DNA of 64,000 bases from an uncultured Gammaproteobacteria bacterium (GCA_964545125.1 CAZJEP010000005.1:1447-65446); one strand, 5' to 3'. Counted from the first letter of the stretch, positions 19,855 through 50,950 are shown. Made by a program: numbers and translations. The notes: generated by a model not told the origin, from the sequence alone.

Positions 19855-19860
19855 AAAATT

Positions 19861-26035: not shown

Positions 26036-29000
26036 TTATTGAAGATTTTTCCAGACAACCAAGGGATGATCCAAGAAGGGGTGGTTTTCTGGGCCAGCGT
26101 TAGGATTGCTATTTGGAGTAAAGGTGTTGGTGGCTCCCCAATTATCGGTCAAAATAATCTTGGGAATAATTTCACAACAATCAATGGCGGGGTTGTTGGC
26201 AATCTCTGATGGCAAACCCTGACAATTATTATGACTGCAATTACCACCGCCGTTTTTTATTTCGTCATAGCTCAAGAAATAATAAACCTGATGGCTATTG
26301 GTAATATCCGGACGCTCAAACATATTAACATTTCTGACCAAGGTAACATCATGATTGTTTTTCTGGTAACCCCAATTAATAACATATTTTTTCAAGGGCA
26401 ACTGATCCTTGTCTATCTTGCTGGCAAAATTGATAACCACCCAACCGGAATCGTTAAGGACATATTTGTCTCCTGACAGCAAGCTGTCGTTAAGTTTAAC
26501 CCGAGGCACAGTCGGACTGACCAAACAATAGTCATTATTGGAGCCATTATATTCCGGTCTGGTGTTATTGTCGCAATTTTTCAAAGCAAAATCAACTTGA
26601 CCGTTACCAATACCACAGCCACTGGCAGAATTTCGGTCATAAGACTGACCATTCCACTTATAGCAAGGGCTTTCATTGTCAACTTTAGTGAACAAACGCT
26701 TAACCGCCTCCACGGCTCGTTTTTTACTCGCCGTCTTATCTGAACTGGTATCTCTAATATCAGAGGCTAGGCGATAAAAATTGGTGTGGTTGAAACATTC
26801 AAACAAACAACCAACTGAAGCACTATCTCCGCAAACACGAGCATCAAGACAATAATCGGTGGCCCAACCAGTAAATTTACTGGTGGCATTATCTTTTGAT
26901 AGTTCACATTTCGTTTGATTATGACGATTACCCCTAGGATAAGATGGGTCATAGCAAACATAAGCATTAAGTGGTGGCATCAAATCATTGGTGGCCCAAA
27001 CTCTATAACCATTCTGATTGGTGGTTGTAATATATTCATATTTGTTGTTTCCCTGAAAGTCACGCCCACCAGGACCACGAGGAGTGCTACATTTTCGATC
27101 TTTGGCTGACCAGGTGCCACATTTATTATTCTCACAAGTAGCGCCATCTTCCCAAATCACAGCCAACCCCACAAAACAATCATCATAAACGCCCAAGTCT
27201 CTGGAGACATCTCGGTCTGTTTTACTGCAATCATTACAGTCGCTAACTTCTATCGGCAGTGGCTCCTGCTTTTGGCTATCCAAATTACCCGGACAATAAG
27301 CTCGACGCTCGCTACCTGTAACATTTTTATCTAGACCGGCTTGGCTAATGCCATAATAAGGTACAAAAGGCATTATTTTGCCTCTAATATTGCCAGCGCT
27401 CAATCTGTCGAACAAGGGCGGTTTAAGCGAAGAATAGGCGCCATAATAGCCACTGCCAGCCTGTTGGTTCAAAACAAGATCCGTGGCCTTGCCTCCGGCA
27501 TTAACCCCAAAATCAGCGTAAAAATAGGAAGAGGTTGGCGTTAGGTTATTGCTATCTTTGAAATTAGTTAATAAATTCGCCGGGATGCTGTAAACACTAT
27601 CCTGGGCAATACGGGAATACCAATAACTTTCTTTGTCCACTTTAATAAAAGTCTGACACTGAAATTCTGGCTGAGTCTTATTGGAACTGTTACAACCATC
27701 ATAAGCGTCCACACAATAATACAAGTCTTTGGGAATATTCAAAGCCACGCCCTCTTCGTATTCTTCGCTTTCCACTTTGTCAATCGGATACCACAAGAGA
27801 CAAGTACCCGAATTTTTCGGATCATATTCCAAACAATAGCCGGTCCAACCTTTCTTGCGCAAACCGCTGTCATCAAAATAATCGCAGGACATAGCATTGC
27901 CCTCTGGGTATAAACGACAGTCGCTATGCAAATATTGTTTGATTTTGTTAGCACTACCGTCATCTTTGATATTGAGACCGGGTTCCAATCTGACATCGTC
28001 AAAATAAACCAAGCCAGCGGTAGGCTTAATCCCAATGGTAATTCTGGTGTCGCGCTCCAGACCCGAAGGCAAGTTTCTTTGATAAGCGTTAGAAATGGAG
28101 AATTTTCCGGTTAAACGAACCCAACGACCAGCCACACTAGTGGAAGCCAGAACGGCCGCCGGGATAGAGGCGCCATCGGCATCGGTGGCATTGCACAAAT
28201 TAGCAGTAGTATCGTTAATGGATTCAAAAGGACACTCGTAATCAGGATCATAACCTCTTTGCCTTAAATTTCTACCCACGGTCAGCTCCACCTTGGCGCC
28301 ATAACGCAAGAAAACATAAGCGGAGACAATATATTGGCGATTGCCCGCATTGGTAACTTCTTTGACCACAAACTCGTTGGTTTTGCCCACAGCCCGACCA
28401 TCAGGAATAATCTTATAACTGCCAAAACCTAGTTCTTTTTCTATAACCTTGGCATCGCTGACGATAGGGGCCCTGGTAGTAGCGGTGCGGAAATCCACAA
28501 AATCGGTTTGCCAAGCATTTTCAAAACTGCCATCAAATTTAACTTTAGCATCACCTTCTTGTTTCATGGTAGCCAAATTATACAAATCGGCATTCCAATA
28601 ATTACCCTCGTAACCAACCTTGGAGTAACCGGTCAAGTTGGAAATATCCAGGGCGGCTGAGCCGGAAATATAAGTTTGGTTGGTGGCCGGATCCTTGGAA
28701 ACAAAATGAATACATTCTCCGGATTCGTTCATTTGGTCGCACAAACCGCGTTCGTAGCAAATCTTGTCCCCGGCTTTGGCCGGATTTTCCGTGTAGCTCT
28801 TACAACCCAGCCAAGCGGAACATTGTCGATCAGGATCAACCTTCAACAAAGCGTTGGCATTATTTTCATTGTCATTGCTGGCGTTTTGCGGGGCCTGTTC
28901 CGAACCGTCGCGGTTTACTCCGCTGGCATTAACATCCCAAACTAAAGGACTGTATTTACCGCCGTTAAAGGCGCGTTCATTAAACAACACCTGACCCTTA

Positions 29001-32000
29001 TCCGGATTAACCGTATTGGGCTTGTCTTGGTTAAGACTGGTCTTGAGACGATAATTAACTAAAGCCTCCCTGATTTGCGCTCCAGCGGGCGGAGTAATAG
29101 TACAATCAGCGGGCTGATTATCCAGCAAAACACTGTTGTCAGCAAAAAAGGCCCCATCAATATAAAATTCTTCACTTTGTTTAACCGTCTTGACCTGATC
29201 GGTGGCCGTAATGATATTATCCTCACCCAAACGATGTAAACGAACTCGTCGCTGATTGCCAGGCGCATTGGGCTGATTGAGATTGACTGCCTTGGTGCAA
29301 GAAATAGTTATTTCGTTGGTAATGTTTTTTAAAACATACAAGGTGTCAAGTTTTAATTTAACTTTGCCGCTGACGACACCGGTCAGAAGATCATAATTAA
29401 CTTTGGATTCCGGATCAATATATTCCGTGCAACTGTTTTGATTGTCCGGACACAAGCCGGCATTGCCAAGCGTCTTACCGGTAGCGTCTTTCACAGCCAT
29501 ACCCACCGGCTGGACCTTGGCTTCACGCACTCCCAAACCGATAGTCTTGTCATAATCTAGCGGATCGCACCGTTCGTCATTGTCAATTAGCTGGCATTTG
29601 GTGCCGACCGAACAATCGGACTGGTTGTCGCAAGAAAATTTGCTGGCGCAATACTGATCGGCGCCGATGGTGACGCAATACTTGCCGTTACCGCAGACTT
29701 TACCGGTCTGAGCGTCAACCGGACAACCCTTGTCGGCGCTAACGCAATGACTGGTTTTTATTTTGTACCAAGCCGGCTCGCTGGCGCTAGACGGTTGTCG
29801 ATATTCGCAAGTGCGCAAACCAGGATCTTTAAAATAAGCTTCGCCTCCGCCTTCTAAACCCCAAGCCTCGCAACCGACCTGATCCTTGGAACACATGGTA
29901 TCTTTGTAATTATTGGGGTCGTTCAACAAATAAACATCCTTATAAGCCTCAGCCAAATCGTCGTATTGTCCTAAACGCGAACAGCCTTTGTCGGCCACCC
30001 GACATTCTTTGGTCTTTTCATAAACCACATAAGCAAAATTATCGGCTGGCACAACAATATTATTAAATCTTTCTTCGCCGTAAAAACTGGAATTATGAGT
30101 ATCAATCATTAATTCGCAACCAACCGCGCTATCTTGGCACAATTTATCAAAACCCTTGAGATTATGAGTTTTATCGGAGCGATCTTTGTACTGTTCACAA
30201 CCCAACATATACAGAGGAGCTGGATTACCAAATAAATCTTGGTTGCAAGAATCTGGGGTCGTCCAAGAATTTCTAATCAAATAATAAGTGTCGGACATTT
30301 CTAAAATCTTAATGTTGTCCAAACGCAAGTCAGCCCCCTGTCCGCCCAAAGTGAATTTTATTTTAGACGAAACGACGTCTTGTTCACCGGGGATGGTTAA
30401 ATCAAATTTATAATTTTTCCAATCGGCTGTGATATCAATATTATCGGCAAAAGCCTGATTAAAACCCGAGTCGCTTTCTATGGCAATCCTGGAAATATTG
30501 ACGTTGTCCGACTTCTTCTTGGCCGTAAAGCTTAAAACATATCTCTTGCCAATTTTTAAATTACTGGTAATGCTTCTTTCAATTTGAGATCCACCCGGTT
30601 TTAAAGAATGCCCGCCCACGGTTAAAGAATCCGAGACCATTTCCACTGGCGGTTTCGGGCCCCAACCGCTTAAGCTGCCCTCAAAAGTATCATAAAATAA
30701 AATTTTAATTTGATTGCCAAAATCACCCTCGTATTCACTACAACCAACCTCGCTAGCGCTACAAGTTTGACTCTTGGTGGGATCGGCCAAATAAACGCAA
30801 GCTTGGTGATCGTCCATCCAGACTCCGCCGTTAAGACAAACAATACAATTTAGTTTGTCGGCGTCCCAATGTCCCAGCTTAGCCTCGCAAGTGGCCTGGT
30901 CAGTAATAGAAACATCAATATTATTATTAACCAAACGATAAGGGTGGCACTCCTTGGAATAAGTGATAGTGGAGGCCATTAAGTGATAAGAAACATTGCC
31001 ATCACGGCCATAGAATTGACGACAATCGGAATTATACAACGGGTGGTCATAGGGTAAAGAATAAAGGGTTTCGTTACAGGCGTCGCCATCGTTGTTGTCG
31101 GCGGTATTGGTGTCGTCGATAGTGGCCGGCTGGCTAATGCCACTAGTTTTGTCCGGATTGGCCAACAACTGATAAACCACCAACTGATAACCAGACTCGT
31201 CCGAACCCTCCCAAGTATAAAACTCAGCATAAACATCATCCGGTTGGCCACAACGGCGGAACTTGGCAAAATACTGATTTTCTTCTCCGCCCGAGGGAAC
31301 TTTGTCCAAATTAACAAACAAAGAACAACCCACGGCATTGGCCTGACAAGTTTTGGCTGTCTTGGGAATAAAATATTCATCACGCGCCGAATAAAAATTA
31401 TTAGCTTTTTGAATAAAAGTGTCATAACCGACGCACTCGTTGGGGCAATAGTCTTTAGGCTTGACCTGGGCCGCCGTTTGATCTTTGGTGTTAACTTCGG
31501 TGTACAACTCGCAACCCACTTCATCGGCTTGGCACTTGCGAGCAAACTCGGAACACTTAGCCGGAGCATCTACTTTAAAGTTGAAATCTTTGTTTTTGTC
31601 TTGATAGCAAGCATCTTCCAAATAATTCGGCAAAAGTTTTTCGTACAGCAGGTTATCTAAACGGTAAGCGGAATATTGACCGCCACTACCCATTTCAAAC
31701 TTCATGTTGTCCACAAAAAATTCGGTGTCTGGACTAATGCCGGAAATTTTCCAGAAATCCATTTTGGCGGCATTGTCGTTGAGTAAGGTCAAAACCATAT
31801 TCTGCCATTCACCAGTGGCTGAAGAATAAATAACCTGGGCGTTGGCCGGATCGGCGCTGTTGCCCATGGTCATCTCCACACTGCCACTAACCACATAAAC
31901 GAAAGCCGACAGCGTATAGATACGATCAAAGTCAAAGGCAAATCCTCCGGGCAACAAACTTTTGTCGTCTGGACCGTAATAAACTCCACGTCTGCCCGCC

Positions 32001-34573
32001 GGCACTTTCAAACTCAAGCCTCCCTGATAAATTTGGTTGCCGGGAGTATTATTGACCAAATCTCCGGAAGCAGACCAACGAGCATCATCAGATGCTTCTA
32101 GTCCCCCATCGGCCAATAAATTAACACCGTTATCATCTTTGACTCTGATAAATTCATGACAACCTTCTTGTTTGTAAGCGCAAGCTCCGGTTTTGCGATT
32201 CAAATAAATATTTTGATTATTGAACCAATTAACCGTGTTGTCGGCCCCATTGTAAGTTCCATTATAAGAATATTCCTTGCAACCAATAGCTGATTGCTGA
32301 CAGCCGTAATCCAAAGTATTGGTTAGATAAGAAACTTTCTGTCCTTTGGGATTTTTGAAAGATTGACAAGTGCTAAACAAAGGATCGCAAGCCTCGTCTT
32401 GCCTGTTTTTATTAAAAATCCAAGAACGTTTTTCCTCGGCGCAATAGCCTCTAAACAAACAAGCGCCGTTGCGACCCTCTTTCAAACAGCCTTGTTCGTC
32501 GGCGCAATAATTATCGTTGCGGTTGACTAAAAGTTTTTGTTCATTGTAAGTGCAAGTAGCCTGGCAAGAAAAATTTCTCAATTCCTTTTCTTTGCCAGGA
32601 ATCATCAATTTGTCTCTGGCCCCCAATTCAGCCTCGGTGCAACAATCATCGTTGGTTTCGCAGGCGTCCAGTTTGCCGTCAACAATCATCCTGGTAGATC
32701 CGTTATCAGCCGAACAATACTTCAAGCCAGTTGTCATCAAGTCGGGATCTTTGACTAATTGCGGACCATAACCTTGGCGCGCGCAATAATATTCCGGCAC
32801 TTTCAAGACCCAGTTGGGATCAACCAAACCGCGACACCAAGGAGCGTCATAACCCCTAAAATTGTCATTAGTATTATAACAAGCCAATAAATCATTAAGA
32901 GTTATTCCCTCCGGCTTATCGGCAAAATCATTGGTTAAATATTTTTTCTGAATGGCTTGAGCGGCCACTTCCCATCCCACCGGTAAAATGCGATATTTTC
33001 TTAAAATAATCAGGGAACGATAAGGATAACCTTGGTTATAAGGAATTTTGTCTTCACCGTTTTTATCAAAACCAAAGGGCCAATTACCAGGCAGTTGGCC
33101 GGATCTGACCGCTTCGGCTACCGTCATTTTGTTTTCAATGGCCGTAGAAAATTCGTTGCCAATAACGCAGTCGGTGGGGCCGGGTCGATCCGGATTGGTA
33201 CAAGCGGTTAATTGTGCCAAGATATCTATTTTGCCACCAGCCGAAAATGTCGGTTCGGTTAATTTGCTGAGTCGGTTTTCAATGGCTTGCCGGCCGACCT
33301 GCTGACCAGTCCAATAACTCAAACTGCCACCTTGACTGCCCAAGTTGCTCATCAAGTTGGTCCAAGAACTGATAGCCCACTGATTTAAGAAAATATTGGC
33401 GGCATCCACCAAAATATCCCCGGTAATTTTGCCCAAATTATCCCACACCGCCTGATCGGCCAATTTCTTTCTCTCCTCGGCGCCATTGGGCGCTCCTTTA
33501 AGCAAACCGGCAAAATTAACATCATCTTTATAGCCATTCTTGGACGGCAAAGAAATTTGGTCGTTAATAACTTGCTTATTGCGATATTCAATTAAATTGC
33601 TGTTCAACAGAAAAGCGGCCCCCAAATCACTGCCGGTCGGATGAAAATTATCCGCCACATTTTCCAAAAAATCTTCACTGGCTAAACTTTTTTGACGCTC
33701 CCATTCGTTAACCCAGTTTTTTTTCATTTGGCTAAAACTACAATGAGTCTGCGAACCGTAATACTGGCTTAGACCCAAACCCAAACTAATCATCAAGGAA
33801 ACATTTAGGCTGGGGTTACAAATATTAAGTCTGGCTAAAGGACTATTAGCACCATTAAACATAGGCGCTCGACGAGCCTGCTCTACCGCGCCACCAGCAT
33901 TTTGCGAACAAGCATTATAAGTGGCCAAACAAGCGTTTAAACAAGCTGTGCTGGGTGGTCCTGATTGACTACAATTACTATCGCACCTTCCTTTGGCATC
34001 ACTACACAAACTCAAACCAGCGCTGACATCACCGCTACTATTCAAACAAACATTATAAGCGTCTTCACAGGCCTTGGTTTGCTCTGGAGTATAGGGGCCA
34101 GTGCCCAGCCGAGCATAACATTCCATTTTTTGCTTATCACAAATAACCTTGCTCTCCTTTTTAATATCTTCGGCAGCGATGTCGGAAATAATCGAATTGG
34201 CAAAACTTTCGATAAAATCACCGGCCGCTTGATCGGCAATATCCTCCCAATGATCTCCCCATTTTTTTTCAATGTATAGTTTTTCTTGTCCTTTGGCGCC
34301 GATGGCCAAATATTTAGCCGCGTCTACGGCCAAATCATTGATATATTTACGCAAAAGGTTTTGAAATAAAATAGTGGCCACCTTATTGCGAACATATTCC
34401 CAGGCAGTCTTAATCCAGTTGGCAGTGGCCGGAATATCCGCTACCACCGTCGTGGTATCCGCCACCCCCAAAATTGCCTCGGCTTGAGGCGCCAACAACA
34501 AATTAGACAATAAAATTAAACTAAAAAAAATTAAAGCAATTTTGAGTTTATGTTGCTTGGTGGTTTTAAACAT
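26036..34573 (-). CDS. giant (2845 aa) secreted cysteine-rich surface protein with three CBM/jelly-roll-like modules
   Basis: Uninterrupted 8.5 kb ORF with a signal peptide ...LLLAPQAEA. It has at least 9 copies of a C-x(4,5)-GC-x-x-aromatic motif, for example CQADEVGCELYTE and CSASEVGCSEYEG. Three modules end FFVDNMKFE, LRLDNIKILE and VYFDDVRLE. Confidence 0.85.
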   Translation of the reverse strand: MFKTTKQHKLKIALIFFSLILLSNLLLAPQAEAILGVADTTTVVADIPATANWIKTAWEYVRNKVATILFQNLLRKYINDLAVDAAKYLAIGAKGQEKLYIEKKWGDHWEDIADQAAGDFIESFANSIISDIAAEDIKKESKVICDKQKMECYARLGTGPYTPEQTKACEDAYNVCLNSSGDVSAGLSLCSDAKGRCDSNCSQSGPPSTACLNACLATYNACSQNAGGAVEQARRAPMFNGANSPLARLNICNPSLNVSLMISLGLGLSQYYGSQTHCSFSQMKKNWVNEWERQKSLASEDFLENVADNFHPTGSDLGAAFLLNSNLIEYRNKQVINDQISLPSKNGYKDDVNFAGLLKGAPNGAEERKKLADQAVWDNLGKITGDILVDAANIFLNQWAISSWTNLMSNLGSQGGSLSYWTGQQVGRQAIENRLSKLTEPTFSAGGKIDILAQLTACTNPDRPGPTDCVIGNEFSTAIENKMTVAEAVRSGQLPGNWPFGFDKNGEDKIPYNQGYPYRSLIILRKYRILPVGWEVAAQAIQKKYLTNDFADKPEGITLNDLLACYNTNDNFRGYDAPWCRGLVDPNWVLKVPEYYCARQGYGPQLVKDPDLMTTGLKYCSADNGSTRMIVDGKLDACETNDDCCTEAELGARDKLMIPGKEKELRNFSCQATCTYNEQKLLVNRNDNYCADEQGCLKEGRNGACLFRGYCAEEKRSWIFNKNRQDEACDPLFSTCQSFKNPKGQKVSYLTNTLDYGCQQSAIGCKEYSYNGTYNGADNTVNWFNNQNIYLNRKTGACAYKQEGCHEFIRVKDDNGVNLLADGGLEASDDARWSASGDLVNNTPGNQIYQGGLSLKVPAGRRGVYYGPDDKSLLPGGFAFDFDRIYTLSAFVYVVSGSVEMTMGNSADPANAQVIYSSATGEWQNMVLTLLNDNAAKMDFWKISGISPDTEFFVDNMKFEMGSGGQYSAYRLDNLLYEKLLPNYLEDACYQDKNKDFNFKVDAPAKCSEFARKCQADEVGCELYTEVNTKDQTAAQVKPKDYCPNECVGYDTFIQKANNFYSARDEYFIPKTAKTCQANAVGCSLFVNLDKVPSGGEENQYFAKFRRCGQPDDVYAEFYTWEGSDESGYQLVVYQLLANPDKTSGISQPATIDDTNTADNNDGDACNETLYSLPYDHPLYNSDCRQFYGRDGNVSYHLMASTITYSKECHPYRLVNNNIDVSITDQATCEAKLGHWDADKLNCIVCLNGGVWMDDHQACVYLADPTKSQTCSASEVGCSEYEGDFGNQIKILFYDTFEGSLSGWGPKPPVEMVSDSLTVGGHSLKPGGSQIERSITSNLKIGKRYVLSFTAKKKSDNVNISRIAIESDSGFNQAFADNIDITADWKNYKFDLTIPGEQDVVSSKIKFTLGGQGADLRLDNIKILEMSDTYYLIRNSWTTPDSCNQDLFGNPAPLYMLGCEQYKDRSDKTHNLKGFDKLCQDSAVGCELMIDTHNSSFYGEERFNNIVVPADNFAYVVYEKTKECRVADKGCSRLGQYDDLAEAYKDVYLLNDPNNYKDTMCSKDQVGCEAWGLEGGGEAYFKDPGLRTCEYRQPSSASEPAWYKIKTSHCVSADKGCPVDAQTGKVCGNGKYCVTIGADQYCASKFSCDNQSDCSVGTKCQLIDNDERCDPLDYDKTIGLGVREAKVQPVGMAVKDATGKTLGNAGLCPDNQNSCTEYIDPESKVNYDLLTGVVSGKVKLKLDTLYVLKNITNEITISCTKAVNLNQPNAPGNQRRVRLHRLGEDNIITATDQVKTVKQSEEFYIDGAFFADNSVLLDNQPADCTITPPAGAQIREALVNYRLKTSLNQDKPNTVNPDKGQVLFNERAFNGGKYSPLVWDVNASGVNRDGSEQAPQNASNDNENNANALLKVDPDRQCSAWLGCKSYTENPAKAGDKICYERGLCDQMNESGECIHFVSKDPATNQTYISGSAALDISNLTGYSKVGYEGNYWNADLYNLATMKQEGDAKVKFDGSFENAWQTDFVDFRTATTRAPIVSDAKVIEKELGFGSYKIIPDGRAVGKTNEFVVKEVTNAGNRQYIVSAYVFLRYGAKVELTVGRNLRQRGYDPDYECPFESINDTTANLCNATDADGASIPAAVLASTSVAGRWVRLTGKFSISNAYQRNLPSGLERDTRITIGIKPTAGLVYFDDVRLEPGLNIKDDGSANKIKQYLHSDCRLYPEGNAMSCDYFDDSGLRKKGWTGYCLEYDPKNSGTCLLWYPIDKVESEEYEEGVALNIPKDLYYCVDAYDGCNSSNKTQPEFQCQTFIKVDKESYWYSRIAQDSVYSIPANLLTNFKDSNNLTPTSSYFYADFGVNAGGKATDLVLNQQAGSGYYGAYSSLKPPLFDRLSAGNIRGKIMPFVPYYGISQAGLDKNVTGSERRAYCPGNLDSQKQEPLPIEVSDCNDCSKTDRDVSRDLGVYDDCFVGLAVIWEDGATCENNKCGTWSAKDRKCSTPRGPGGRDFQGNNKYEYITTTNQNGYRVWATNDLMPPLNAYVCYDPSYPRGNRHNQTKCELSKDNATSKFTGWATDYCLDARVCGDSASVGCLFECFNHTNFYRLASDIRDTSSDKTASKKRAVEAVKRLFTKVDNESPCYKWNGQSYDRNSASGCGIGNGQVDFALKNCDNNTRPEYNGSNNDYCLVSPTVPRVKLNDSLLSGDKYVLNDSGWVVINFASKIDKDQLPLKKYVINWGYQKNNHDVTLVRNVNMFERPDITNSHQVYYFLSYDEIKNGGGNCSHNNCQGLPSEIANNPAIDCCEIIPKIILTDNWGATNTFTPNSNPNAGPENHPFLDHPLVVWKNLQ

Positions 34574-34574: not shown

Positions 34575-35312
34575 TTATTTATTAATCATAGAATGATACA
34601 TTTCTAATAATTGTTCGTCACTTATTTTACCTAAAGCATCTTTGTCTTCCTGTTTAGTAGCGGCCGAAATTAACTGGGAGCGCAAATATTGGGGATCGGG
34701 ATTGTCGCCAAAAGCCTGTTGTAAAGAACCGGCGCTGGCCGAATCAAGGGGCTGGATGGTAACAGGGGTGGTAACAGCTGAACCGTTAGTAGTGGCGCCA
34801 GAGCTATTAAATAAATCAACCGTCGTAGTAACGCCTGAACTAAGCTGTTCACTGCCGATAATCAAACCATCGGCGCTGCATTGTTTGCCTTCAGGACAAT
34901 TAGGGTTAGTGCTATTTTTAATTTCTTGCTGATCCGAAATACCGTCGCCGTCAGTATCCACCAAAAAAGGCGAAGTAAGATAAACGGTTAATTCTTGAAC
35001 ATCGGTCAAACCATCACCGTCCGTATCTTTGTTGTCGGAAGTAGCTAGTGGCGCTTGGTTGGCATTGTCGGCAGCCACTTTATTTTCAAAACTGGTCTTA
35101 CTCATACCTCCGTAAAAAGGGTAAGTAATATTTTTATTCAGCTCTCTGAACCAAAAAATTATGACAAGCAAGGTAAAACAAGACAAAACAGCCACACCAA
35201 TTTTTTGTTCTTTGGTTAGCCGTAAAGAGTGATTGAGATCCACCTGTTTGGGAGAACCTGCCTGTCCGGCGGGCAGGGATTGTAAATCACCAAAATTTGG
35301 CACTTGCGCCAT
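34575..35312 (-). CDS. membrane-anchored protein with thrombospondin type-3-like Ca-binding repeats
   Basis: One TM helix, then DNKDTDGDGLTDVQE and VDTDGDGISDQQE repeats. Its stop lies 1 nt from the giant gene's ATG. Confidence 0.6.
   Translation of the reverse strand: MAQVPNFGDLQSLPAGQAGSPKQVDLNHSLRLTKEQKIGVAVLSCFTLLVIIFWFRELNKNITYPFYGGMSKTSFENKVAADNANQAPLATSDNKDTDGDGLTDVQELTVYLTSPFLVDTDGDGISDQQEIKNSTNPNCPEGKQCSADGLIIGSEQLSSGVTTTVDLFNSSGATTNGSAVTTPVTIQPLDSASAGSLQQAFGDNPDPQYLRSQLISAATKQEDKDALGKISDEQLLEMYHSMINK
35257..35277. repeat. CCTGCC-N9-GGCAGG hairpin element, in frame in the CDS (encodes LPAGQAG)
   Basis: cctgcctgtccggcgggcagg. Confidence 0.8.
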
Positions 35313-35347
35313 ATGAAAAAATTACTCGTTGTTTAAGAGTAATTTTA

Positions 35348-36226
35348 TTATACCATAAATTGTTTAGCCAAGCCAAGCAGTTTTACCCAATCGGCCAAGG
35401 ACAAGTCTTCGGCGCGAGTGAGCGGATTCAATTCGGCCCTGACAAGCAAGTCTTGAGTCTCGGTAGCGGTTATTTTTAAACCATTGGCCAAATTATTTTT
35501 GAGCATTTTTCGTTTGGAGCTAAAACCAATTCTAGCTAAACGAAAAAATTTTTTTTCATCAACTTGAAACTTATGATTTAAAACTTGCAATTTGATAATG
35601 GCGCTATCCACAGCCGGCACCGGCCAAAAATCGTTTCTGCTAACCGGAGCGATAATTTTAGCTTCGACAAAAAATTGTACCGATAAAGCCAACAAGCTCA
35701 TCTCTCCGGGACCAGCCACGAGGCGCTGGGCCACTTCTTTTTGCAACATCAAAGTTAGCGAGGTCGGCTTAAAATTCCCGGACAAAAATTTGCGTAAAAA
35801 AATCGAAGTAATGTTATAAGGCAAGTTGGCCACGATCTTATATGAACCTTTAATTCCTGCCTCGCCGGCCTGCCTACCGGCAAGACAGGTAGGCAGGTTG
35901 AATTTTGAATTTTGAAAATCCAAAATGTTAGCTTGGACGACTTGAACATTTTTAATCCCCTGACTTTGCAACCTGGTCGGCAAAATGGTGGCTAACTTTT
36001 GATCCAGCTCCACAGCCAAAACCGACTTAACTCGCTCGGCTAATAAAAAAGTTAAGAAACCAAGTCCTGGCCCGACCTCCAACACCGTGTCGTTTTTGTT
36101 TAAGTCAGCTGTTTTAACAATCTGTTCGTAAACCGTTTCGTTGATTAAAAAATTCTGCCCGCGCGATCGCGTGGGCTTGATGTGATAAAGACTACATAAT
36201 TCCCTGGTTTCCTGTAACAAATCCAT
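35348..36226 (-). CDS. rsmA: 16S rRNA (adenine1518/1519-N6)-dimethyltransferase
   Basis: RSRGQNFLINETV, VLEVGPGLGFLT and IVANLPYNITS. Start trimmed to the ATG at 36226. Confidence 0.9.
   Translation of the reverse strand: MDLLQETRELCSLYHIKPTRSRGQNFLINETVYEQIVKTADLNKNDTVLEVGPGLGFLTFLLAERVKSVLAVELDQKLATILPTRLQSQGIKNVQVVQANILDFQNSKFNLPTCLAGRQAGEAGIKGSYKIVANLPYNITSIFLRKFLSGNFKPTSLTLMLQKEVAQRLVAGPGEMSLLALSVQFFVEAKIIAPVSRNDFWPVPAVDSAIIKLQVLNHKFQVDEKKFFRLARIGFSSKRKMLKNNLANGLKITATETQDLLVRAELNPLTRAEDLSLADWVKLLGLAKQFMV
35851..35897. repeat. compound CCTGCC/GGCAGG hairpin element in frame inside rsmA (encodes LPTCLAGRQAGEAG)
   Basis: cctgcctcgccggcctgcctaccggcaagacaggtaggcagg. The 9-bp arms are cctgcctac (35869-35877) and gtaggcagg (35889-35897). 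Confidence 0.8.
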
Positions 36227-36298
36227 GAGATTAAAATATAATCCACAAACAACAAACAACAAAAACTAAAGGTAACTTGTTATTTGTTATTTGTTATT

Positions 36299-38932
36299 TT
36301 ATTCAACTACTATATTCACCAGCTTCCCTTTAACAAAAATGACTTTGGTGGGAGTTTTCCCGTCCAGCCATTTGATAATTTTTTCAGCTTTCAAGGCCAA
36401 TTCTTTAGCTTCCGCTTCGCCAATATCAGCGCTAACTTTAATGGTTGCCCGCAATTTACCGTTAATTTGAACTACTAAATTGATTGACTCATCTTTGGCC
36501 CGTTTAGGGTCAAATTTGGGCCAAGGCTGCTTGAAAATAGAGTCTTGGCCGGTTTGTCCTTGCCAAAGCTCTTCGGCCAAATGCGGGGCAAAGGGGGCTA
36601 AAATGATTAAAAATTTTTTCCAGTCTTCCGCTTCAATAACCTCGCTCTCAGTCATTTTATTAACTAAAATCATCAAGGAACTGATGGCCGTGTTGAATTT
36701 AAAAGCTTCGATATCCTCCCCCACCTTGCGAATAGTTTTATGTAGTAATCTTTTAAAATCCGTGCTCTCCTTATTCTGGCTCTGGCTATTTTTGATTTGT
36801 AATTTTGAATTAATTTTATAGATTCTGTCCAAAAATTTCCGAGCGCCGGACAAACTGTCAGGGTTCCAAGCAATAGACTCGCCAAAAGGACCCATAAACA
36901 TTTCATAAACTCGCAAAGTATCCGCGCCACGAGCAGTTACAATGTCGTCCGGATTAATAACGTTATTCCAACGCTTACTCATCTTGCGATTATCTTCGGC
37001 TAAAATCAAACCGACATGACGCAACTTGGCAAAGGGTTCGTCCACACTCACCGCCCCAAGATCGAACAAAAATTTGTGCCAAAAACGCGCGTAAATCAAA
37101 TGGCGAGTGGCATGCTCCGCTCCGCCCACATAACAATCCACCGGCAACCACTGAGCAAAAGCTTCCTTATAATCTGTCATCGCGAGCGAGGTCGATTGAA
37201 AATTGTCAGCCAAAGGTTGATCAGCCTTGGGCTGAGAAATTCCTGACATAATATAAGCCAAATAATACCAGCTTGAACCGGCCCATTGTGGCATGGTGTT
37301 AGTTTCGCGTCGCGCTGGACCGCCACAGCGCGGACAGACGGTCTCCACCCAGTCGGTAATATTGGCCAAGGGCGACTCCCCAGTGCCTGACGGTTCGTAA
37401 CTGTCTATCTCAGGCAACTTAACCGGCAAATTGTTATCAACAAACCAACCTGGATTTAACTCTTCTCCCCTATTGCTAACTTTCAACTTTTTACTTTTAA
37501 CTTGTGACTGGCAATTTTCGCAGAAAATTAGCGGAATGGGTTCTCCCCAGTATCTTTGACGCGAAAACACCCAATCTTTTAATTTATACTGGACTTTTTT
37601 AGTGCCGATTTTTTTATCTTCCAGCCAGGCGATAATTTTGTCCTTAGCCTCCAGAGTGGTCAAGCCATTTAAAAAATCAGAGTTGATAACCAAGCCCTCT
37701 CCGCAATACACTTGATTAATTTCTAATTTCGAATTTTGAATTTCCTTATCATTGCTAACAACTACCTGTTTAACCGGCAATTTATATTTAGTCGCAAATT
37801 CATAATCTCTACTGTCGTGTCCTGGTACCGCCATAATCGCGCCCGTGCCATAGCCGGCCAAAACATAATCGGCCACATAAATCGGAATTTCTTCCCCGTT
37901 GGCGGGATTAATCGCTTTAATCCCCTTAAGCTCGACGCCCGTCTTGTCCTTATTTAAATCAGTCCGCTCCAAATCAGACTTATTTTTAGTTTTATTGATG
38001 TAATCCTCAACTTCTTTATAATTCTTAATTCTTAATTCTTCATTCTTAATTATTTCATGTTCCGGCGCTAAAACTAAGTAAGTCGCCCCAAAAATTGTAT
38101 CCGGACGCGTGGTAAACACTTCTATTTCGGTTAGCTTCTTTACCTCGACAGGAATGACAGAATTTTTTGCGATTTGGGATTTGGGATTTTTTTGCCTGCC
38201 TGCCGGCGAGGCAGGGAGATTGGCCTTTATGATCTGGAATTTAATACTGGCTCCTTCGGATCTGCCAATCCAATTTCTCTGCATTTCTTTGATTGGCTCT
38301 TCCCAATCATTTAATTTGTCTAAATCATCGAGCAATCTGTCGGCATAGTCGGTAATTTTAATCACCCACTGGCGTAAAGGTTTTTTTTCTACTGGCGTAT
38401 GGCAACGCTCGCAACGACCATCTTCCACGTCTTCGTTGGCTAAGCCGGTCAAGCAAGTCGGACACCAATTGATTGGTTCATATGACTCATAAACCAAACC
38501 GCGTTCAAACATTTTGCTAAAAACCCACTGAGTCCATTTATAGTATTCGGGATCAGTCGTGTTTATTTCTCGCGACCAATCATAACTCAACCCCAAAAGA
38601 TTTAACTGGCGTTTATAATTAATAATGTTTTTGTCGGTAGCCAGGCGTGGATGGACATGGTTAGCCAGAGCATAGTTTTCGGCTGGCAAGCCAAAAGCGT
38701 CCCAACCCATCGGATGCAAAACATTAAACCCCTGCAACTTTTTATAACGAGCTACCACATCAGTGGCGATATAACCTCGCGGATGTCCGACGTGTAGCCC
38801 GGTACCCGAAGGATAAGGAAACATGTCCAAAATATAATATTTGGGCTTTTTGCCGTTGTTTTCGGTTTTATACAAAGCGTCTTTGGCCCATTTCTCCTGC
38901 CACTTGGTTTCGATTTCTTGATGGTTATACAT
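36299..38932 (-). CDS. leuS: leucine--tRNA ligase
   Basis: PYPSGTGLHVGHPRGY (HIGH), KMSKR, the TTRPDT editing-domain motif and the VQINGKLR C-terminus. Confidence 0.95.
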   Translation of the reverse strand: MYNHQEIETKWQEKWAKDALYKTENNGKKPKYYILDMFPYPSGTGLHVGHPRGYIATDVVARYKKLQGFNVLHPMGWDAFGLPAENYALANHVHPRLATDKNIINYKRQLNLLGLSYDWSREINTTDPEYYKWTQWVFSKMFERGLVYESYEPINWCPTCLTGLANEDVEDGRCERCHTPVEKKPLRQWVIKITDYADRLLDDLDKLNDWEEPIKEMQRNWIGRSEGASIKFQIIKANLPASPAGRQKNPKSQIAKNSVIPVEVKKLTEIEVFTTRPDTIFGATYLVLAPEHEIIKNEELRIKNYKEVEDYINKTKNKSDLERTDLNKDKTGVELKGIKAINPANGEEIPIYVADYVLAGYGTGAIMAVPGHDSRDYEFATKYKLPVKQVVVSNDKEIQNSKLEINQVYCGEGLVINSDFLNGLTTLEAKDKIIAWLEDKKIGTKKVQYKLKDWVFSRQRYWGEPIPLIFCENCQSQVKSKKLKVSNRGEELNPGWFVDNNLPVKLPEIDSYEPSGTGESPLANITDWVETVCPRCGGPARRETNTMPQWAGSSWYYLAYIMSGISQPKADQPLADNFQSTSLAMTDYKEAFAQWLPVDCYVGGAEHATRHLIYARFWHKFLFDLGAVSVDEPFAKLRHVGLILAEDNRKMSKRWNNVINPDDIVTARGADTLRVYEMFMGPFGESIAWNPDSLSGARKFLDRIYKINSKLQIKNSQSQNKESTDFKRLLHKTIRKVGEDIEAFKFNTAISSLMILVNKMTESEVIEAEDWKKFLIILAPFAPHLAEELWQGQTGQDSIFKQPWPKFDPKRAKDESINLVVQINGKLRATIKVSADIGEAEAKELALKAEKIIKWLDGKTPTKVIFVKGKLVNIVVE
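37206..37236. repeat. GC-rich double-hairpin mini-element, copy 2, in frame in leuS (encodes SQPKADQPLA)
   Basis: tcagcc-aaa-ggttga then tcagcc-ttg-ggctga. Related to 12954-12984. Confidence 0.7.
38195..38215. repeat. CCTGCC-N9-GGCAGG hairpin element in frame in leuS (encodes PASPAGRQ)
   Basis: cctgcctgccggcgaggcagg, preceded by the tandem gatttgggatttggg. Confidence 0.8.
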
Positions 38933-44028: not shown

Positions 44029-44138
44029 AAAAGTTCTAAATTTTAAGTTTAAAATTTCAAGTGAAACAACTTTACCCAAAAAACTTAAAACTTAAGCCTT
44101 GAAACTTGAAACTTAAGACACACCTTATCCATAACTAA

Positions 44139-44758: not shown

Positions 44759-46414
44759 ATGTTACTAAATAACATTAAAAAAATATATTTACCGACCTTA
44801 ATCTTTTTACTCTTGACCCCTAGCTTAGTTTTGGCAGCCGACAACGATATTATCTGCCCCGAAGCTCAGGCCACAGAGGTTCTGGTTTATTTTCATGGCC
44901 TCACCCACAACGACCACTCCATTTATGTCAACAGCTTAAACACCTTTAAGTCAGAATTAGCAAAAATAAAAAATCAACGACCAGGCGTGGCCGGCATCCA
45001 TGTCAACAACGAAGCCAACGGAGGCAACTGGAAAGGGGTCAAGGTTAACGTCAGCGCTCTGGTTGACCAAGTCAAGAATAAATGTGGCGTTCAGGCTGGC
45101 GCTAATTTTTACACCACTATCGCCGGCCATAGCGCCGGTGGCTATGCCGTTATTAACAACGCCAATTCAGCCAGCAAAATTATTATTTTAGACGGTATGT
45201 ATTGGCCGGCCGATCCCCTGTTTGACAAGTGTTCCAAGATTAGCGTCATCGGAGGATCCGTGGCCGGTAATGGCGGGACCAAAGACCAAACAACTAGATT
45301 AATAAATAAATGCTATGGAACCAGTGGCTTTAATTCCATAGCCAACAGCGACGGTAAAATCAGCCATGACGGCACTCGCGCCTATTTATCCTCTTTCTAC
45401 CTAAATTCTTCCGGAGTTGTCAGTGTGTCCTCGCCTAATACTAGTCAAAATCAAAATAAAACAAATTCAACATTTAATGTTTCTTTGCCGATGATTAAAA
45501 ACCCCTTCGACAGTTTGCAGGTAATGATTCCGGGCATGCCCAGATTTTCGGACGCTGTTATTAGCGGTTCTGGCAACAATATGAAAATTACCATCAACTG
45601 GATAGGCGAATACATCATGGGAATTTATAATTACGCTATCGGCGTTATCGGTATTTTTTCGGTGGTGGCCATTGCCATTGGCGGCACCATGTGGATTTTG
45701 TCTTTTGGCAATCCGGGTCAAATCATTATCGCCAAGGAATGGATTCTTGGCGCCATTTTGGGCTTGGTATTGGCCCTGGGGTCATATATCCTGCTCAACA
45801 CTATCAATGACGATCTAATTCAAATGAAACCAATAGAATTGGCTTATATTCAAAGAATTGAAGATCCGGGCGATAATGGTTCTGGCGGCGATTACTACCA
45901 TGTCGGTCCTAACCAGGTCGGTCAACCTTACAGCGGTCAAGATCCGAATAATCCTTGTCCGGCCAGCACTCTCCCTGATTTAACGCAATATTATGCTTAC
46001 AAAGCTAACCCTCCTCTTATTTATAGTCAGGATCCTAATAAACGAAGACAGGCGGGATATTGTGATTGCTCCTCGTTCTCTCAACACCTGGCTATTTGTT
46101 CCAGAGCCAATGCTATTGCCGGCGAAGGTCGCACCATAAATTTATTTAAAGATGTCAGTAACAATCGCGAAGAAATCATGGACTGCGACAATCCTCCTAA
46201 AATGTCTCCAGGAGACATTTTTGGCTACTACAGCGATAGCAAAGAAAGAGGCCACGTCTTAACTTACATTGGCAATGGCCAATACATCGAATGTGGCGGT
46301 GAATTCAAAGGCAACACACAAACCCGGGGAGCTATTAAAATTGGCCCCTTTAGAGAAAGATGTTTATCATACAAAAAAAACAATAACATTAAACTCTTCT
46401 TTATTAGTCGATAA
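44759..46414 (+). CDS. tri-partite protein: alpha/beta-hydrolase-like domain, pilin-type two-TM hairpin, and NlpC/P60-like cysteine peptidase
   Basis: N-terminal part has VLVYFHGL and TIAGHSAGGYA (GxSxG). The middle has YNYAIGVIGIFSVVAIAIGGTMWILSFGNPGQIIIAKEWILGAILGLVLALGSYILLNTIN. The C-terminal part has GYCDCSSFSQHL and GHVLTYIGNGQYIECGG. Confidence 0.6.
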   Translation: MLLNNIKKIYLPTLIFLLLTPSLVLAADNDIICPEAQATEVLVYFHGLTHNDHSIYVNSLNTFKSELAKIKNQRPGVAGIHVNNEANGGNWKGVKVNVSALVDQVKNKCGVQAGANFYTTIAGHSAGGYAVINNANSASKIIILDGMYWPADPLFDKCSKISVIGGSVAGNGGTKDQTTRLINKCYGTSGFNSIANSDGKISHDGTRAYLSSFYLNSSGVVSVSSPNTSQNQNKTNSTFNVSLPMIKNPFDSLQVMIPGMPRFSDAVISGSGNNMKITINWIGEYIMGIYNYAIGVIGIFSVVAIAIGGTMWILSFGNPGQIIIAKEWILGAILGLVLALGSYILLNTINDDLIQMKPIELAYIQRIEDPGDNGSGGDYYHVGPNQVGQPYSGQDPNNPCPASTLPDLTQYYAYKANPPLIYSQDPNKRRQAGYCDCSSFSQHLAICSRANAIAGEGRTINLFKDVSNNREEIMDCDNPPKMSPGDIFGYYSDSKERGHVLTYIGNGQYIECGGEFKGNTQTRGAIKIGPFRERCLSYKKNNNIKLFFISR

Positions 46415-50904: not shown

Positions 50905-50950
50905 TAGTAACCTGCCCGTCTGTCCGCGGTCGCGGGACGCGACCAGGGGT
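50905..50950. repeat. intergenic GC-rich element related to the CCTGCC hairpin family
   Basis: cctgcccgtctgtccgcgg resembles cctgcctgtccggcgg at 35257. It contains the hairpin ggtcgcg-gga-cgcgacc (50928-50944). Confidence 0.5.

What the first reader, a model, noticed from the sequence alone, without database searches (positions are those of the whole stretch)
35257..38215. CCTGCC-N9-GGCAGG hairpin elements sitting in frame inside rsmA, leuS and a surface-protein gene
Three copies of a 21-nt GC-rich hairpin occur within about 3 kb. They are cctgcctgtccggcgggcagg (35257-35277), a compound copy in rsmA (35851-35897) and cctgcctgccggcgaggcagg in leuS (38195-38215). A related half-element lies in intergenic DNA at 50911-50929. 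Each is translated in the host frame as (L)PAGQAG, LPTCLAGRQAGEAG and PASPAGRQ. In leuS and rsmA they fall in segments that look like extra loops compared with the canonical enzymes as I remember them. The unit length of 21 nt is a multiple of three, and the GC content contrasts sharply with the host genes. This suggests a tiny mobile or recombinogenic palindromic element that survives inside essential genes only when inserted in frame.
Basis: partly seen in the sequence, partly recalled or inferred. Interest (0 to 1): 0.6.

Follow-up and report, generated by a model that had tools for sequence, protein, structure and literature searches.

The report
Tiny 21-base hairpin repeat inside genes
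Three essential or conserved genes of this candidate-phyla-radiation bacterium each carry a secondarily inserted 21-base GC-rich hairpin. The same few 20/21-base sequences turn up at unrelated sites in bacteria of about ten phyla, and inside genes mainly the 21-base, frame-keeping form is found, where it adds seven floppy amino acids to a surface loop.

Summary
CCTGCC-N9-GGCAGG occurs at 35257-35277 and 38195-38215, against 0 expected, and as a 42-nt compound at 35856-35897. All are read in frame in a TSP3-repeat membrane protein, RsmA and LeuRS. The "half element" at 50911 is not supported.

The compound is one 21-nt unit nested inside another. Orthologues lack the inserts: one TSP3 orthologue lacks exactly 21 nt. 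AlphaFold puts the encoded peptides in disordered loops.

The leuS 21-mer is found exactly in at least 120 stretches from Patescibacteria, Bacteroidota, Omnitrophota, Planctomycetota, Elusimicrobiota and others, about 1 expected, always with unrelated flanks. The family has a 7-bp stem CCTGCCT/AGGCAGG and a loop RCCGGCN. It inserts without target duplication, after a purine. It sits 13-38 times more often than control positions inside heptanucleotide tandem arrays, and also inside other palindromes.

The 21-nt forms lie in long ORFs in 52% of cases and the perfect 20-nt palindrome in 18% (p=2e-8).

Best reading: an ultra-small, non-autonomous, copy-and-paste palindromic element resembling cyanobacterial SDRs, Rickettsia RPEs and REPs. 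The enzyme that moves it is unknown. I found no published description.

The parts
35257..35277 (-). Unit 1, CCTGCCTGTCCGGCGGGCAGG (+ strand). It is read in frame as LPAGQAG, codons 13-19 of the 245-aa TSP3-repeat membrane protein.
   Evidence: Exact motif match. Translation. The N-terminus is conserved in orthologues, so the hairpin is truly coding. L419 lacks exactly these 21 nt, and L420 has the variant CCTGCCTACCGGACAGGCAGG at the same site.
35856..35868 (-). Left part of the outer rsmA unit (CCTGCCTCGCCGG). Together with 35890-35897 it rebuilds the reverse complement of the leuS unit with 1 mismatch. With the cut moved one base the match is 21/21.
   Evidence: Sequence read directly. On the coding strand the outer unit reads L-P...A-G-E-A-G, the commonest intragenic frame.
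35869..35889 (-). Inner rsmA unit, CCTGCCTACCGGCAAGACAGG, 21 nt, nested inside the outer unit. It adds TCLAGRQ.
   Evidence: Motif match with 1 mismatch. It differs by 1 nt from the variant CCTGCCTACCGGCAAGGCAGG, which occurs in 15 other genome stretches and in tandem in L094.
35890..35897 (-). Right part of the outer rsmA unit (TAGGCAGG).
   Evidence: AlphaFold gives pLDDT below 50 for RsmA residues 120-133, which cover most of the encoded 14 aa, in a loop between strands 106-110 and 142-146.
38195..38215 (-). Unit in leuS, CCTGCCTGCCGGCGAGGCAGG, read as PASPAGR. This exact 21-mer is the one found across phyla.
   Evidence: It lies in an insertion (LeuRS residues about 239-266) that most orthologues lack. 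The insertion is unaligned to T. thermophilus LeuRS and has pLDDT below 50.
35898..35916 (.). Heptanucleotide tandem array (TTGAATT x2.7) abutting the rsmA compound unit. The array continues in phase on the other side (AATTAAA).
   Evidence: TRF. Joined flanks read directly. The general association is shown.
38166..38189 (.). Heptanucleotide tandem array (TTTGGGA x3.4) five bases from the leuS unit. It encodes KNPKSQIAK and is part of the same LeuRS insertion.
   Evidence: TRF and translation. The same heptamer flanks the same 21-mer in L169.
34575..35312 (-). Host gene 1: a 245-aa protein with an N-terminal membrane helix and bacterial TSP3 repeats.
   Evidence: ORF. Pfam PF18884. Orthologue alignment A3.
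35348..36262 (-). Host gene 2: rsmA/ksgA, the 16S rRNA dimethyladenosine transferase. The true start is probably the ATG at 36226.
   Evidence: ORF. PDB matches to KsgA/RsmA. Orthologues start at MDLL and residues 1-12 have pLDDT below 50.
36299..38932 (-). Host gene 3: leuS, leucyl-tRNA synthetase, 877 aa.
   Evidence: ORF. Homologues. PDB LeuRS matches.

Best explanation
The three loci hold four copies of an ultra-short, GC-rich palindromic dispersed repeat of 20 or 21 nt. It has a 7-bp stem CCTGCCT/AGGCAGG around a 7-nt loop R-CCGGC-N, and it is the perfect 20-nt palindrome (CCTG)2CC.GG(CAGG)2 plus one extra loop base. It behaves as a selfish, non-autonomous, copy-and-paste DNA element.

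Shown: copies were added secondarily to genes that lack them in relatives. The unit has sharp 21-nt borders and unrelated flanks. It inserts with no target-site duplication, usually after a purine and often at G^G. It can insert into itself (rsmA) or stand in tandem. It is strongly over-represented inside heptanucleotide tandem arrays and inside other palindromic repeats. The same few sequence variants occur in many phyla.

Shown statistically: a selection filter decides what remains in genes. The unit is stop-free in all six frames. The 21-nt form is kept in ORFs about three times more often than the 20-nt form. Frames that give small, flexible residues (LPAGEAG, PASPAGR) dominate. Copies end up in permissive, disordered surface loops: the strand linker into the LeuRS editing domain, the RsmA loop before the NLPY motif, and the cytoplasmic tail of the TSP3 protein.

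Inferred, not shown: the unit is copied as single-stranded DNA folded into the hairpin, by a trans-acting enzyme encoded elsewhere, with chemistry like REP/RAYT or IS200/IS605 HUH enzymes. It would enter DNA that is transiently single-stranded or structured at replication forks, which would explain its preference for tandem arrays and palindromes. A 21-bp double-stranded circle is physically implausible. The hairpin probably has no host function and simply adds 7 or 14 neutral residues.
For: Motif excess in the window.

Nested structure: the 42-nt rsmA copy is one 21-nt unit interrupted by exactly 21 nt of a second variant.

Presence or absence in orthologues:
- The LeuRS insert is absent from the 69%-identical P0002 and from most of the 47 aligned orthologues.
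- P0018 carries the identical 21-mer at a different LeuRS site, inside a TCGTTAG array, and its 79%-identical relative P0022 lacks those 7 aa.
- The RsmA loop is hypervariable. Four of 120 orthologues carry family units there, in different frames.
- The TSP3 orthologue in L419 lacks exactly 21 nt. L420 and L422 (83% identical) differ by presence or absence.

Spread: the exact 21-mer occurs in at least 120 genome stretches with unrelated flanks, mostly in genomes of 30-50% G+C.

Structural constraint: position 8 is only G or A, and position 15 is almost always A, pairing with T7.

Insertion site: no target-site duplication, and a purine at -1 in 89% of copies. Period-7 continuity across the junction is 19%, 8% and 6.5% in the three sets, against 0.5% in controls. 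Removing the unit restores intact flavobacterial or CPR palindromes.

Frame filter: 52% and 51% of 21-mers lie in ORFs against 18% of 20-mers, p=1.6e-8. Frame usage is non-uniform, p=2.7e-6.

Disordered loops in AlphaFold models.

The hairpin is 19/21 identical between the window and L420, while by my reading of alignment A4 the flanks are only about 55-60% identical.
Against: - No transposition event, enzyme or intermediate was seen.
- No transposase, RAYT/HUH enzyme or reverse transcriptase is encoded in the 64-kb window.
- The only reads available for this organism are low-depth contigs and show no polymorphism.
- The nearest genomes are only 65-70% identical, so gain cannot be told from loss at each site.
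- The 'empty' L419 site still reads CCTGCCCGCGCAGG, a mini-palindrome. This is compatible with precise loss or with local growth rather than insertion.
- Identity across phyla is hard to explain by ordinary transposition, and the unit is rare in viral contigs, with 3 hits.
- There is no strand bias relative to GC skew, 60:65. IS200/IS605-type elements, which target the lagging strand, usually show such a bias.
- Copy density is low or zero in many CPR genomes: 1 hit in 750 kb of control loci.
Confidence: 0.78

Rival explanations
1. The units are generated locally rather than being mobile. A short (CCTG)n/(CAGG)n tract or proto-palindrome is extended in place by fold-back or template-switch replication and slippage, the same instability that makes the neighbouring heptamer arrays. 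In this view the hairpins in different genomes are convergent products of a mutational bias.
For: The arms are (CCTG)2.5 and (CAGG)2.5, and the core is a perfect 20-nt palindrome plus one base. Units are tightly associated with tandem arrays, roughly at their centre. The 'empty' orthologous site in L419 still carries CCTGCCCGCGCAGG. No mobilising enzyme was found.
Against: The loop (RCCGGCN) as well as the stem is identical in more than 100 unrelated sites and about ten phyla, with 18 or more fixed positions. Borders are sharp inside unrelated heptamers and inside unrelated palindromes. One variant is nested in another. The bare hexamer CCTGCC is not enriched in the window.
Confidence: 0.1
2. 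The hairpins are host-selected functional structures. In the mRNA they could act as translational pause sites at domain borders, RNase or RNA-binding-protein sites, or attenuators. In the DNA they could act as protein-binding or supercoiling elements, as proposed for REPs.
For: Stem complementarity is conserved, and the hairpin is better conserved than its flanks between the window and L420. The LeuRS copy sits at a domain junction. REPs have been proposed to act as RNA elements (PMC3733652).
Against: Positions are not conserved among orthologues. Both orientations and all six frames occur. About half the copies are intergenic, with no common context and no Rfam family. No U-run follows the hairpin on either strand. 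Copies occur in tandem, nested and inside other repeats.
Confidence: 0.07
3. The peptide is what selection keeps: a short Pro/Ala/Gly-rich linker motif recruited repeatedly. The DNA hairpin would then be a by-product of its codons.
For: Two of the six frames (LPAGEAG, PASPAGR) dominate inside ORFs.
Against: The same DNA is read in different frames in the three window genes. Synonymous positions are invariant across phyla. Half the copies are non-coding. The encoded segments are predicted to be disordered and are absent from close orthologues.
Confidence: 0.02
4. The hairpins are an assembly or sequencing artefact.
For: Most hits come from metagenome-assembled genomes.
Against: Independent Logan contigs of a public run reproduce the window sequence without differences. 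Units occur in cultured isolates such as Arenibacter, Zunongwangia, Aequorivita, Winogradskyella and Flagellimonas. Reading frames are preserved. The units are not adaptor-like.
Confidence: 0.01

Closest known systems
Small dispersed repeats (SDR1-8) of Nostoc punctiforme and relatives (Elhai et al. 2008, Genome Res 18:1484). The paper is not held here and is cited from memory and through PMC3116915 and PMC2884548.
   Same: Very small size (21-27 nt) and hairpin potential. As I recall the paper, also occurrence inside heptameric tandem repeats and inside other repeats, nesting, insertion without target duplication, mobility inferred from orthologous filled and empty sites, and an unknown mobilising enzyme. 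All of these features were found here.
   Different: The hosts differ: Patescibacteria, Bacteroidota, Omnitrophota, Planctomycetota and others, with no cyanobacterium among about 360 stretches. I could not compare the sequence with the SDR families. Here the same units are shared across phyla, and a 20-nt versus 21-nt frame filter in genes is demonstrated.
Rickettsia palindromic elements (RPE; Ogata et al. 2000 and 2002, cited from my own knowledge and via PMC3733652)
   Same: Palindromic selfish repeats inserted in frame in conserved protein genes. They add peptide segments that are tolerated at the protein surface.
   Different: RPEs are about 100-150 bp, are confined to Rickettsia, and have no sequence similarity to this unit. 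The unit here is 21 nt (7 aa) and is spread over many phyla.
REP/REPIN elements mobilised by RAYT transposases, including intragenic GTAG/CGTC-tagged REPs (PMC3733652, PMC3116915)
   Same: GC-rich imperfect palindromes of 20-40 nt in many copies. Some lie inside ORFs, including tRNA synthetase genes. They are thought to be moved in trans as single-stranded hairpins.
   Different: No GTAG or CGTC tag. Units are not arranged as inverted doublets. No RAYT gene was found in the window. REP families are species- or genus-specific and mainly extragenic, whereas these units are identical across phyla and half are intragenic.
GC clusters and double-hairpin elements of fungal mitochondrial DNA (from my own knowledge)
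   Same: Short GC-rich palindromes spreading in an AT-rich genome. They are sometimes found in frame inside protein genes, and their mechanism is unknown.
   Different: They occur in organelle genomes, are longer (30-80 nt), and are unrelated in sequence.

Membership tests
Cyanobacterial SDR elements (Elhai 2008) | Dispersed repeat of about 21-27 nt with sharp borders and unrelated flanks | tested here: met
   20/21-nt units with unrelated flanks in more than 300 stretches.
Cyanobacterial SDR elements (Elhai 2008) | Preferential location inside heptameric tandem repeats and other repeats, with nesting | tested here: met
   Period-7 continuity in 6.5-19% of copies against 0.5% of controls. Units lie inside GTCATTGCGAGC- and TACGCTTTCGCGAAAGCGTA-type palindromes. 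A nested unit occurs in rsmA.
Cyanobacterial SDR elements (Elhai 2008) | Filled and empty orthologous sites, with no target-site duplication | tested here: met
   A 21-nt gap in L419. No TSD in 121 copies.
Cyanobacterial SDR elements (Elhai 2008) | Sequence identity to one of SDR1-8, and a cyanobacterial host | not testable with these tools
   The paper and its sequences are not held. No cyanobacterial record appears among the listed hits.
REP/REPIN-RAYT | Conserved GTAG or CGTC tetranucleotide at one foot of the hairpin | tested here: not met
   The unit starts with CCTG and ends with CAGG. The flanks are variable apart from a purine at -1.
REP/REPIN-RAYT | RAYT (Y1 HUH transposase) gene in the genome, flanked by the repeats | tested here: inconclusive
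   No Y1_Tnp or other transposase among 50 window ORFs. The rest of the genome was not available.
REP/REPIN-RAYT | Mostly extragenic, often as inverted doublets at fixed spacing | tested here: not met
   About 52% lie in long ORFs. Arrangements are single, tandem-direct or nested.
Rickettsia palindromic elements | Palindromic element of 100-150 bp, in frame in ORFs, in the Rickettsia lineage | tested here: not met
   In-frame location in ORFs is met. Length is 21 nt and the host is a CPR bacterium.
MITE | Terminal inverted repeats of a parent IS, a target-site duplication, and 70-300 bp length | tested here: not met
   No TSD, length 21 nt, and no parent IS in the window.
Intrinsic terminator or known structured RNA | GC hairpin followed by a U-run, or a match to an Rfam family | tested here: not met
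   No T-run follows on either strand. There is no Rfam match, even at E<=10.

The most novel reading that the evidence does not exclude
A previously undescribed class of pan-bacterial 'nano-transposon'. A 20/21-nt DNA hairpin with a near-invariant sequence would be maintained and moved by an unknown, widely distributed trans-acting machinery in at least ten phyla. It would enter structured DNA without a footprint. It would be a general source of 7-aa loop insertions in core proteins of Patescibacteria and Bacteroidota. It may also be mechanistically linked to the birth or turnover of heptanucleotide tandem arrays.
Probability: 0.35. Interest if true: 0.85.

Novelty: new variant of a known kind. 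Interest (0 to 1): 0.66.

Why it matters
If these units are mobile, they are among the smallest mobile DNAs known, and the same sequence is shared by very distant bacteria. That implies either an unrecognised, widespread mobilising activity or an unusual route of horizontal spread.

They also show how essential enzymes of streamlined CPR genomes acquire loop insertions: 21-nt hairpins that are stop-free in all frames, together with heptamer arrays, passed through a reading-frame and surface-loop filter. This helps explain the many lineage-specific inserts in CPR proteins.

There are practical consequences too. The repeats create spurious shared k-mers between unrelated genomes, seen as loose ends. 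They also create low-complexity peptides such as PASPAGR and LPAGEAG that can mislead binning, alignment and homology searches.

The 20-nt versus 21-nt contrast gives a clean natural experiment on selection against frameshifts.

Tried and rejected
- Exact look-up of the window's LeuRS in the gene-position index found nothing on record.
- Public reads: the organism is present only as low-depth Logan contigs from a wastewater metagenome, so there is no information on polymorphism or RNA.
- A metagenome scan for filled or empty alleles of the leuS site (flank-N{0,30}-flank) returned 11 chance matches and none was related.
- Rfam found no family for the hairpins in the window (E<=10) or for 18 loci with intergenic copies.
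- Target-site duplication of 2-7 bp was not found beyond what heptamer arrays produce. Inverted-repeat extension of the flanks was also not found as a general feature.
- Orientation relative to GC skew showed no bias, 60:65. Orientation relative to the coding strand showed none either, 33:37.
- A viral vector is unlikely, with only 3 hits in IMG/VR.
- Pfam on all 50 window ORFs found no transposase, HUH enzyme or reverse transcriptase.
- Literature searches on the DNA sequence, on the encoded peptides, and on palindromes or heptamers in CPR and Flavobacteria found no description. The Elhai 2008 paper could not be opened.
- The 50911 'half element' was rejected as a family member.
- A serine-recombinase or double-stranded-circle mechanism was considered because of the G^G target, and rejected because a 21-bp circle is implausible and the two junctions are not equivalent.
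- My regex hits containing '*' are false positives and were ignored.


Full report
**1. What is in the window**

The window has about 41% G+C. The LeuRS, RsmA and neighbouring proteins identify it as a bacterium of the candidate phyla radiation (Patescibacteria). The best LeuRS relatives are Parcubacteria and Falkowbacteria MAGs at 58-69% identity. The sequence itself is reproduced by contigs of a wastewater metagenome run.

The motif CCTGCC-N9-GGCAGG occurs exactly at 35257-35277 and 38195-38215. None was found in 100 dinucleotide shuffles. A 42-nt compound lies at 35856-35897. All three lie in minus-strand genes:
- a 245-aa membrane protein with bacterial TSP3 repeats (34575-35312);
- rsmA (35348-36262);
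- leuS (36299-38932).

They are read in frame as LPAGQAG, LPTCLAGRQAGEAG and PASPAGRQ. The units are 81% G+C. As single-stranded DNA they fold at -6 to -9 kcal/mol for single units and about -12 to -13 kcal/mol for the compound.

The hexamer CCTGCC alone is not enriched, at 23 found against 22 expected. The proposed half-element at 50911 has no second arm and only weak similarity. I do not count it.

**2. Anatomy of the units**

The rsmA compound is one unit inside another. CCTGCCTCGCCGG + [CCTGCCTACCGGCAAGACAGG] + TAGGCAGG is the reverse complement of the leuS unit, interrupted by exactly 21 nt of a second variant. On the coding strand this reads L-P-[TCLAGRQ]-A-G-E-A-G.

Two of the three loci abut heptanucleotide tandem arrays: TTGAATT next to rsmA and TTTGGGA next to leuS. 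In rsmA the array continues in phase once the 42 nt are removed.

**3. The inserts are secondary and sit in loops**

*LeuRS.* The window protein has 877 aa, against about 800-830 in relatives. The segment around residues 239-266 holds the hairpin and the heptamer array. It is absent from the closest homologue (P0002, 69% identity) and from most of the 47 orthologues aligned with it. HMMER cannot align residues 235-259 to T. thermophilus LeuRS, which places the segment at the strand linker that enters the CP1 editing domain. AlphaFold2 gives pLDDT below 50 and no secondary structure for residues 239-266, between strands 224-236 and 269-274.

*RsmA.* The insert lies in the loop between '..ILDF' and 'YKIVANLPYN'. 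The closest orthologues (64-68% identity) have a short loop there. B. subtilis KsgA has a shorter loop. Residues 120-133 have pLDDT below 50.

*TSP3 protein.* The N-terminus is conserved among orthologues, so the hairpin is truly coding. P0242 (L419) lacks exactly 7 aa, or 21 nt. P0243 (L420) carries the variant CCTGCCTACCGGACAGGCAGG at the same site. Its 83%-identical relative P0244 (L422) lacks it.

Between the window and L420 the hairpin is 19/21 identical. By my reading of alignment A4, the flanking coding DNA is only about 55-60% identical.

**4. The same unit occurs elsewhere**

My estimate of the chance expectation is about 0.3-1.

The hits come from many CPR lineages: Falkow-, Yanofsky-, Roizman-, Curtiss-, Magasanik-, Campbell-, Gottesman-, Levy- and Peribacteria, WWE3 and Saccharibacteria. 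They also come from Bacteroidota, including cultured Arenibacter, Zunongwangia and Aequorivita, and from Omnitrophota, Elusimicrobiota, Ignavibacteriota, Planctomycetota and Acidobacteriota. Most host loci have 30-50% G+C. Flanks are unrelated between loci, so the unit has sharp 21-nt borders.

A degenerate scan shows a small set of variants:

| Loop variant | Stretches |
|---|---|
| ..TGCCGGCAAGG.. | 58 |
| ..TGCCGGCGAGG.. | about 27 |
| ..TACCGGCAAGG.. | 15 |
| ..TGCCGGCCAGG.. | 10 |

Position 8 is only G or A. Position 15 is nearly always A, pairing with T7. The structure is therefore a 7-bp stem with a 7-nt loop RCCGGCN. The perfect 20-nt palindrome CCTGCCTGCCGGCAGGCAGG is equally common. 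Only 3 hits occur in 2.9 million viral contigs.

Another CPR leuS (P0018, locus L204) carries the identical 21-mer at a different site, inside a TCGTTAG array. Its 79%-identical relative P0022 lacks those 7 aa. Four of 120 RsmA orthologues carry family units in the same loop, in different frames.

**5. Insertion signature**

- There is no target-site duplication.
- The base before the unit is a purine in 89% of 121 copies (G 70, A 38, T 11, C 2). The base after it is often G.
- In 19% of copies of the GCGA variant, 8% of the other 21-mers and 6.5% of the 20-mers, the flanks form a heptamer tandem array that runs through the junction in phase. The figure for random positions is 0.5%.
- Such arrays have about four units, with the hairpin near the middle and mostly at G^G.
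- Other copies sit inside unrelated palindromic repeat families, such as GTCATTGCGAGCGA|AGCGAAGCAATC in CPR and TACGCTTTCGCGAAAGCGTA in flavobacteria, at two offsets. Removing the unit restores the intact host repeat.
- Units also occur in tandem at 21-nt spacing inside a 620-codon ORF (L094).
- Orientation shows no bias relative to GC skew (60:65) or to the coding strand (33:37).

**6. The reading-frame filter**

The unit has no stop codon in any of its six frames.

| Set | In an open stretch of at least 150 codons, with at least 20 on each side |
|---|---|
| 21-mers (194) | 100 (52%) |
| 20-mers (103) | 19 (18%) |
| Simulated random 21-nt insertion, same loci | 80% |

The difference between 21-mers and 20-mers gives Fisher p=1.6e-8. 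Insertions in genes are therefore selected against in general, and frame-breaking ones much more so.

Among 70 intragenic copies the frames are far from uniform: LPAGEAG 23, PASPAGR 23, CLAGRQ 8, LPRRQAG 6, CLPARQ 6 and PACRRGR 4 (chi-square p=2.7e-6). The window's copies use the favoured frames.

**7. Interpretation**

The data fit a selfish, non-autonomous, copy-and-paste palindromic element, filtered by selection to in-frame positions in permissive loops.

The mechanism of movement is not shown. I infer a single-stranded hairpin intermediate handled by a trans-acting enzyme, entering structured or single-stranded DNA at replication forks. The reasons are that the unit is too short for a double-stranded circle, that it leaves no duplication, and that it prefers arrays and palindromes.

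Several facts weigh against a classical IS200/IS605-like route. There is no strand bias. The target is a single purine rather than a tetranucleotide. No HUH gene lies in the window.

Identity across phyla requires a constrained sequence recognised by conserved machinery, or frequent horizontal transfer, or both.

Local de novo growth from (CCTG)n tracts is the main rival. The palindromic arms and the mini-palindrome left at the 'empty' L419 site support it. The invariant loop, the sharp borders inside unrelated repeats, and the nesting argue against it.

The other readings fit poorly. For a functional RNA or DNA structure. For a selected peptide. For an artefact.

**8. Relation to known systems**

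In behaviour the closest match is the small dispersed repeats of Nostoc (Elhai et al. 2008). I cite these from memory and through PMC3116915 and PMC2884548, because the paper could not be opened. They also resemble Rickettsia palindromic elements and the intragenic REPs catalogued in PMC3733652, which notes REPs within tRNA synthetase genes.

The unit fails the defining features of REP/RAYT elements: it has no GTAG or CGTC tag, forms no doublets, and is not extragenic. It fails those of RPEs by length and lineage. It fails those of MITEs, having no TIR and no TSD.

Full-text searches for the DNA sequence, for its peptides and for related key words found no description. I therefore rate it a new variant of a known kind. 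The unusual points are the sequence shared across phyla, the link to heptamer arrays, and the demonstrable 20-nt versus 21-nt frame filter.

**9. Limits**

- Scans were capped at 120 rows, so total counts and the full taxonomic range are unknown.
- Taxon labels of some third-party MAGs are unreliable. CPR-like loci are labelled 'Gammaproteobacteria'.
- ORF status was inferred from open stretches, not from annotation.
- No close strain pair was available for the window organism.
- No RNA or protein data exist.

Noticed in passing
window 261-301, 3723-3754, 4789-4820, 4960-4988, 14022-14045, 18885-18915, 19858-19891, 35898-35916, 36245-36299, 37477-37503, 37718-37744, 38019-38051, 38166-38189, 44080-44116, 51980-52001: There are sixteen period-7 (heptanucleotide) tandem arrays of 3-5 units. 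By coordinates, ten lie in the roughly 11% of the window that is intergenic, and six lie in genes (CysRS, RsmA and four in LeuRS). They encode peptides such as IIKNEELRIKNY, EIQNSKLEIN and KNPKSQIAK. At the same LeuRS site, orthologues carry arrays built from different heptamers, with both repeat copies changed together (IKNYELRIKNY, ISNFQFSISNW, ITNYESQITNY, IGNWQSAIGNW). This looks like rapid turnover or concerted evolution of the arrays.
   Followed up: partly
window 37206-37235 (leuS): A second, unrelated 30-nt hairpin, TCAGCCAAAGG-N8-CCTTGGGCTGA, is read in frame as SQPKADQPLA. It lies in another LeuRS insertion (residues about 562-588, pLDDT below 50). L008 and L013 have LPAGQ- and PSAGGQ-type peptides at the same place.
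   Followed up: partly
LeuRS and RsmA orthologues P0002, P0013, P0016, P0017, P0047, P0061, P0069, P0081, P0091-P0093, P0113, P0122, P0134, P0138; locus L420 70-1074: Other palindromic repeat families are also inserted in frame in the same loops of CPR LeuRS and RsmA. They translate as VIPAKAGIQ..RFRGNDK, HPERSDSEVKD..SFADAQDD, VIASEAKQS..IASS..PRNDE and SRHSREGGNP..WMPASAGMT. L420 RsmA carries a roughly 39-aa insert of this kind that its close relatives L422 and L419 lack.
   Followed up: partly
window 36226-36262: The listed TTG start of rsmA (36262) is probably too far upstream. Orthologues begin at MDLL.., corresponding to the ATG at 36226, and residues 1-12 have pLDDT below 50. The extension overlaps an ACAAACA heptamer array.
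   Followed up: partly
window 36245-36299 and 261-467: Heptamer arrays occur as inverted pairs that could form long imperfect hairpins between genes. ACAAACA x2.7 faces TTGTTAT x3.3 between leuS and rsmA. ATAAAGTT x5 at 261-301 faces AAACTTTAT x4.6 at 427-467.
   Followed up: no
window 26036-34573 and neighbours; P0022 and L422 loci: Gene order is conserved across related CPR genomes: DsbA-like thioredoxin, Exo_endo_phos nuclease, LeuRS, RsmA, TSP3 protein, then a giant protein of 2600-2850 aa with no strong Pfam match. Some relatives add a PDDEXK_3 gene, or a 23S-IVP/bAvd-like gene between rsmA and the TSP3 gene.
   Followed up: no
window 5269-6613, 16230-19854, 44759-46414: There is a type IV secretion-like gene set: a TraG/VirB4-type P-loop ATPase, a TraC-like protein, PrgI and several T4SS pilin-domain proteins. 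The window also encodes several DNA repair enzymes: RecG, pyrimidine-dimer glycosylase, Fpg and an Xth-like nuclease.
   Followed up: no
LeuRS homologues P0005, P0019-P0021, P0032, P0041, P0055, P0068, P0071 and others: Many CPR LeuRS proteins are 920-1260 aa long and carry extra NUDIX (PF00293) or alpha/beta-hydrolase domains (PF12697, PF06821) within or fused to the synthetase.
   Followed up: no
L088, L132, L142 (Flavobacteriaceae): Three flavobacterial genomes carry the identical 21-mer at the same position in the N-terminal tail of a small membrane protein family (..KPASPAGRY(L/F/I)..YAIGE..), while the flanking DNA has diverged. This could be conserved inheritance or a repeated hit at one site.
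   Followed up: partly
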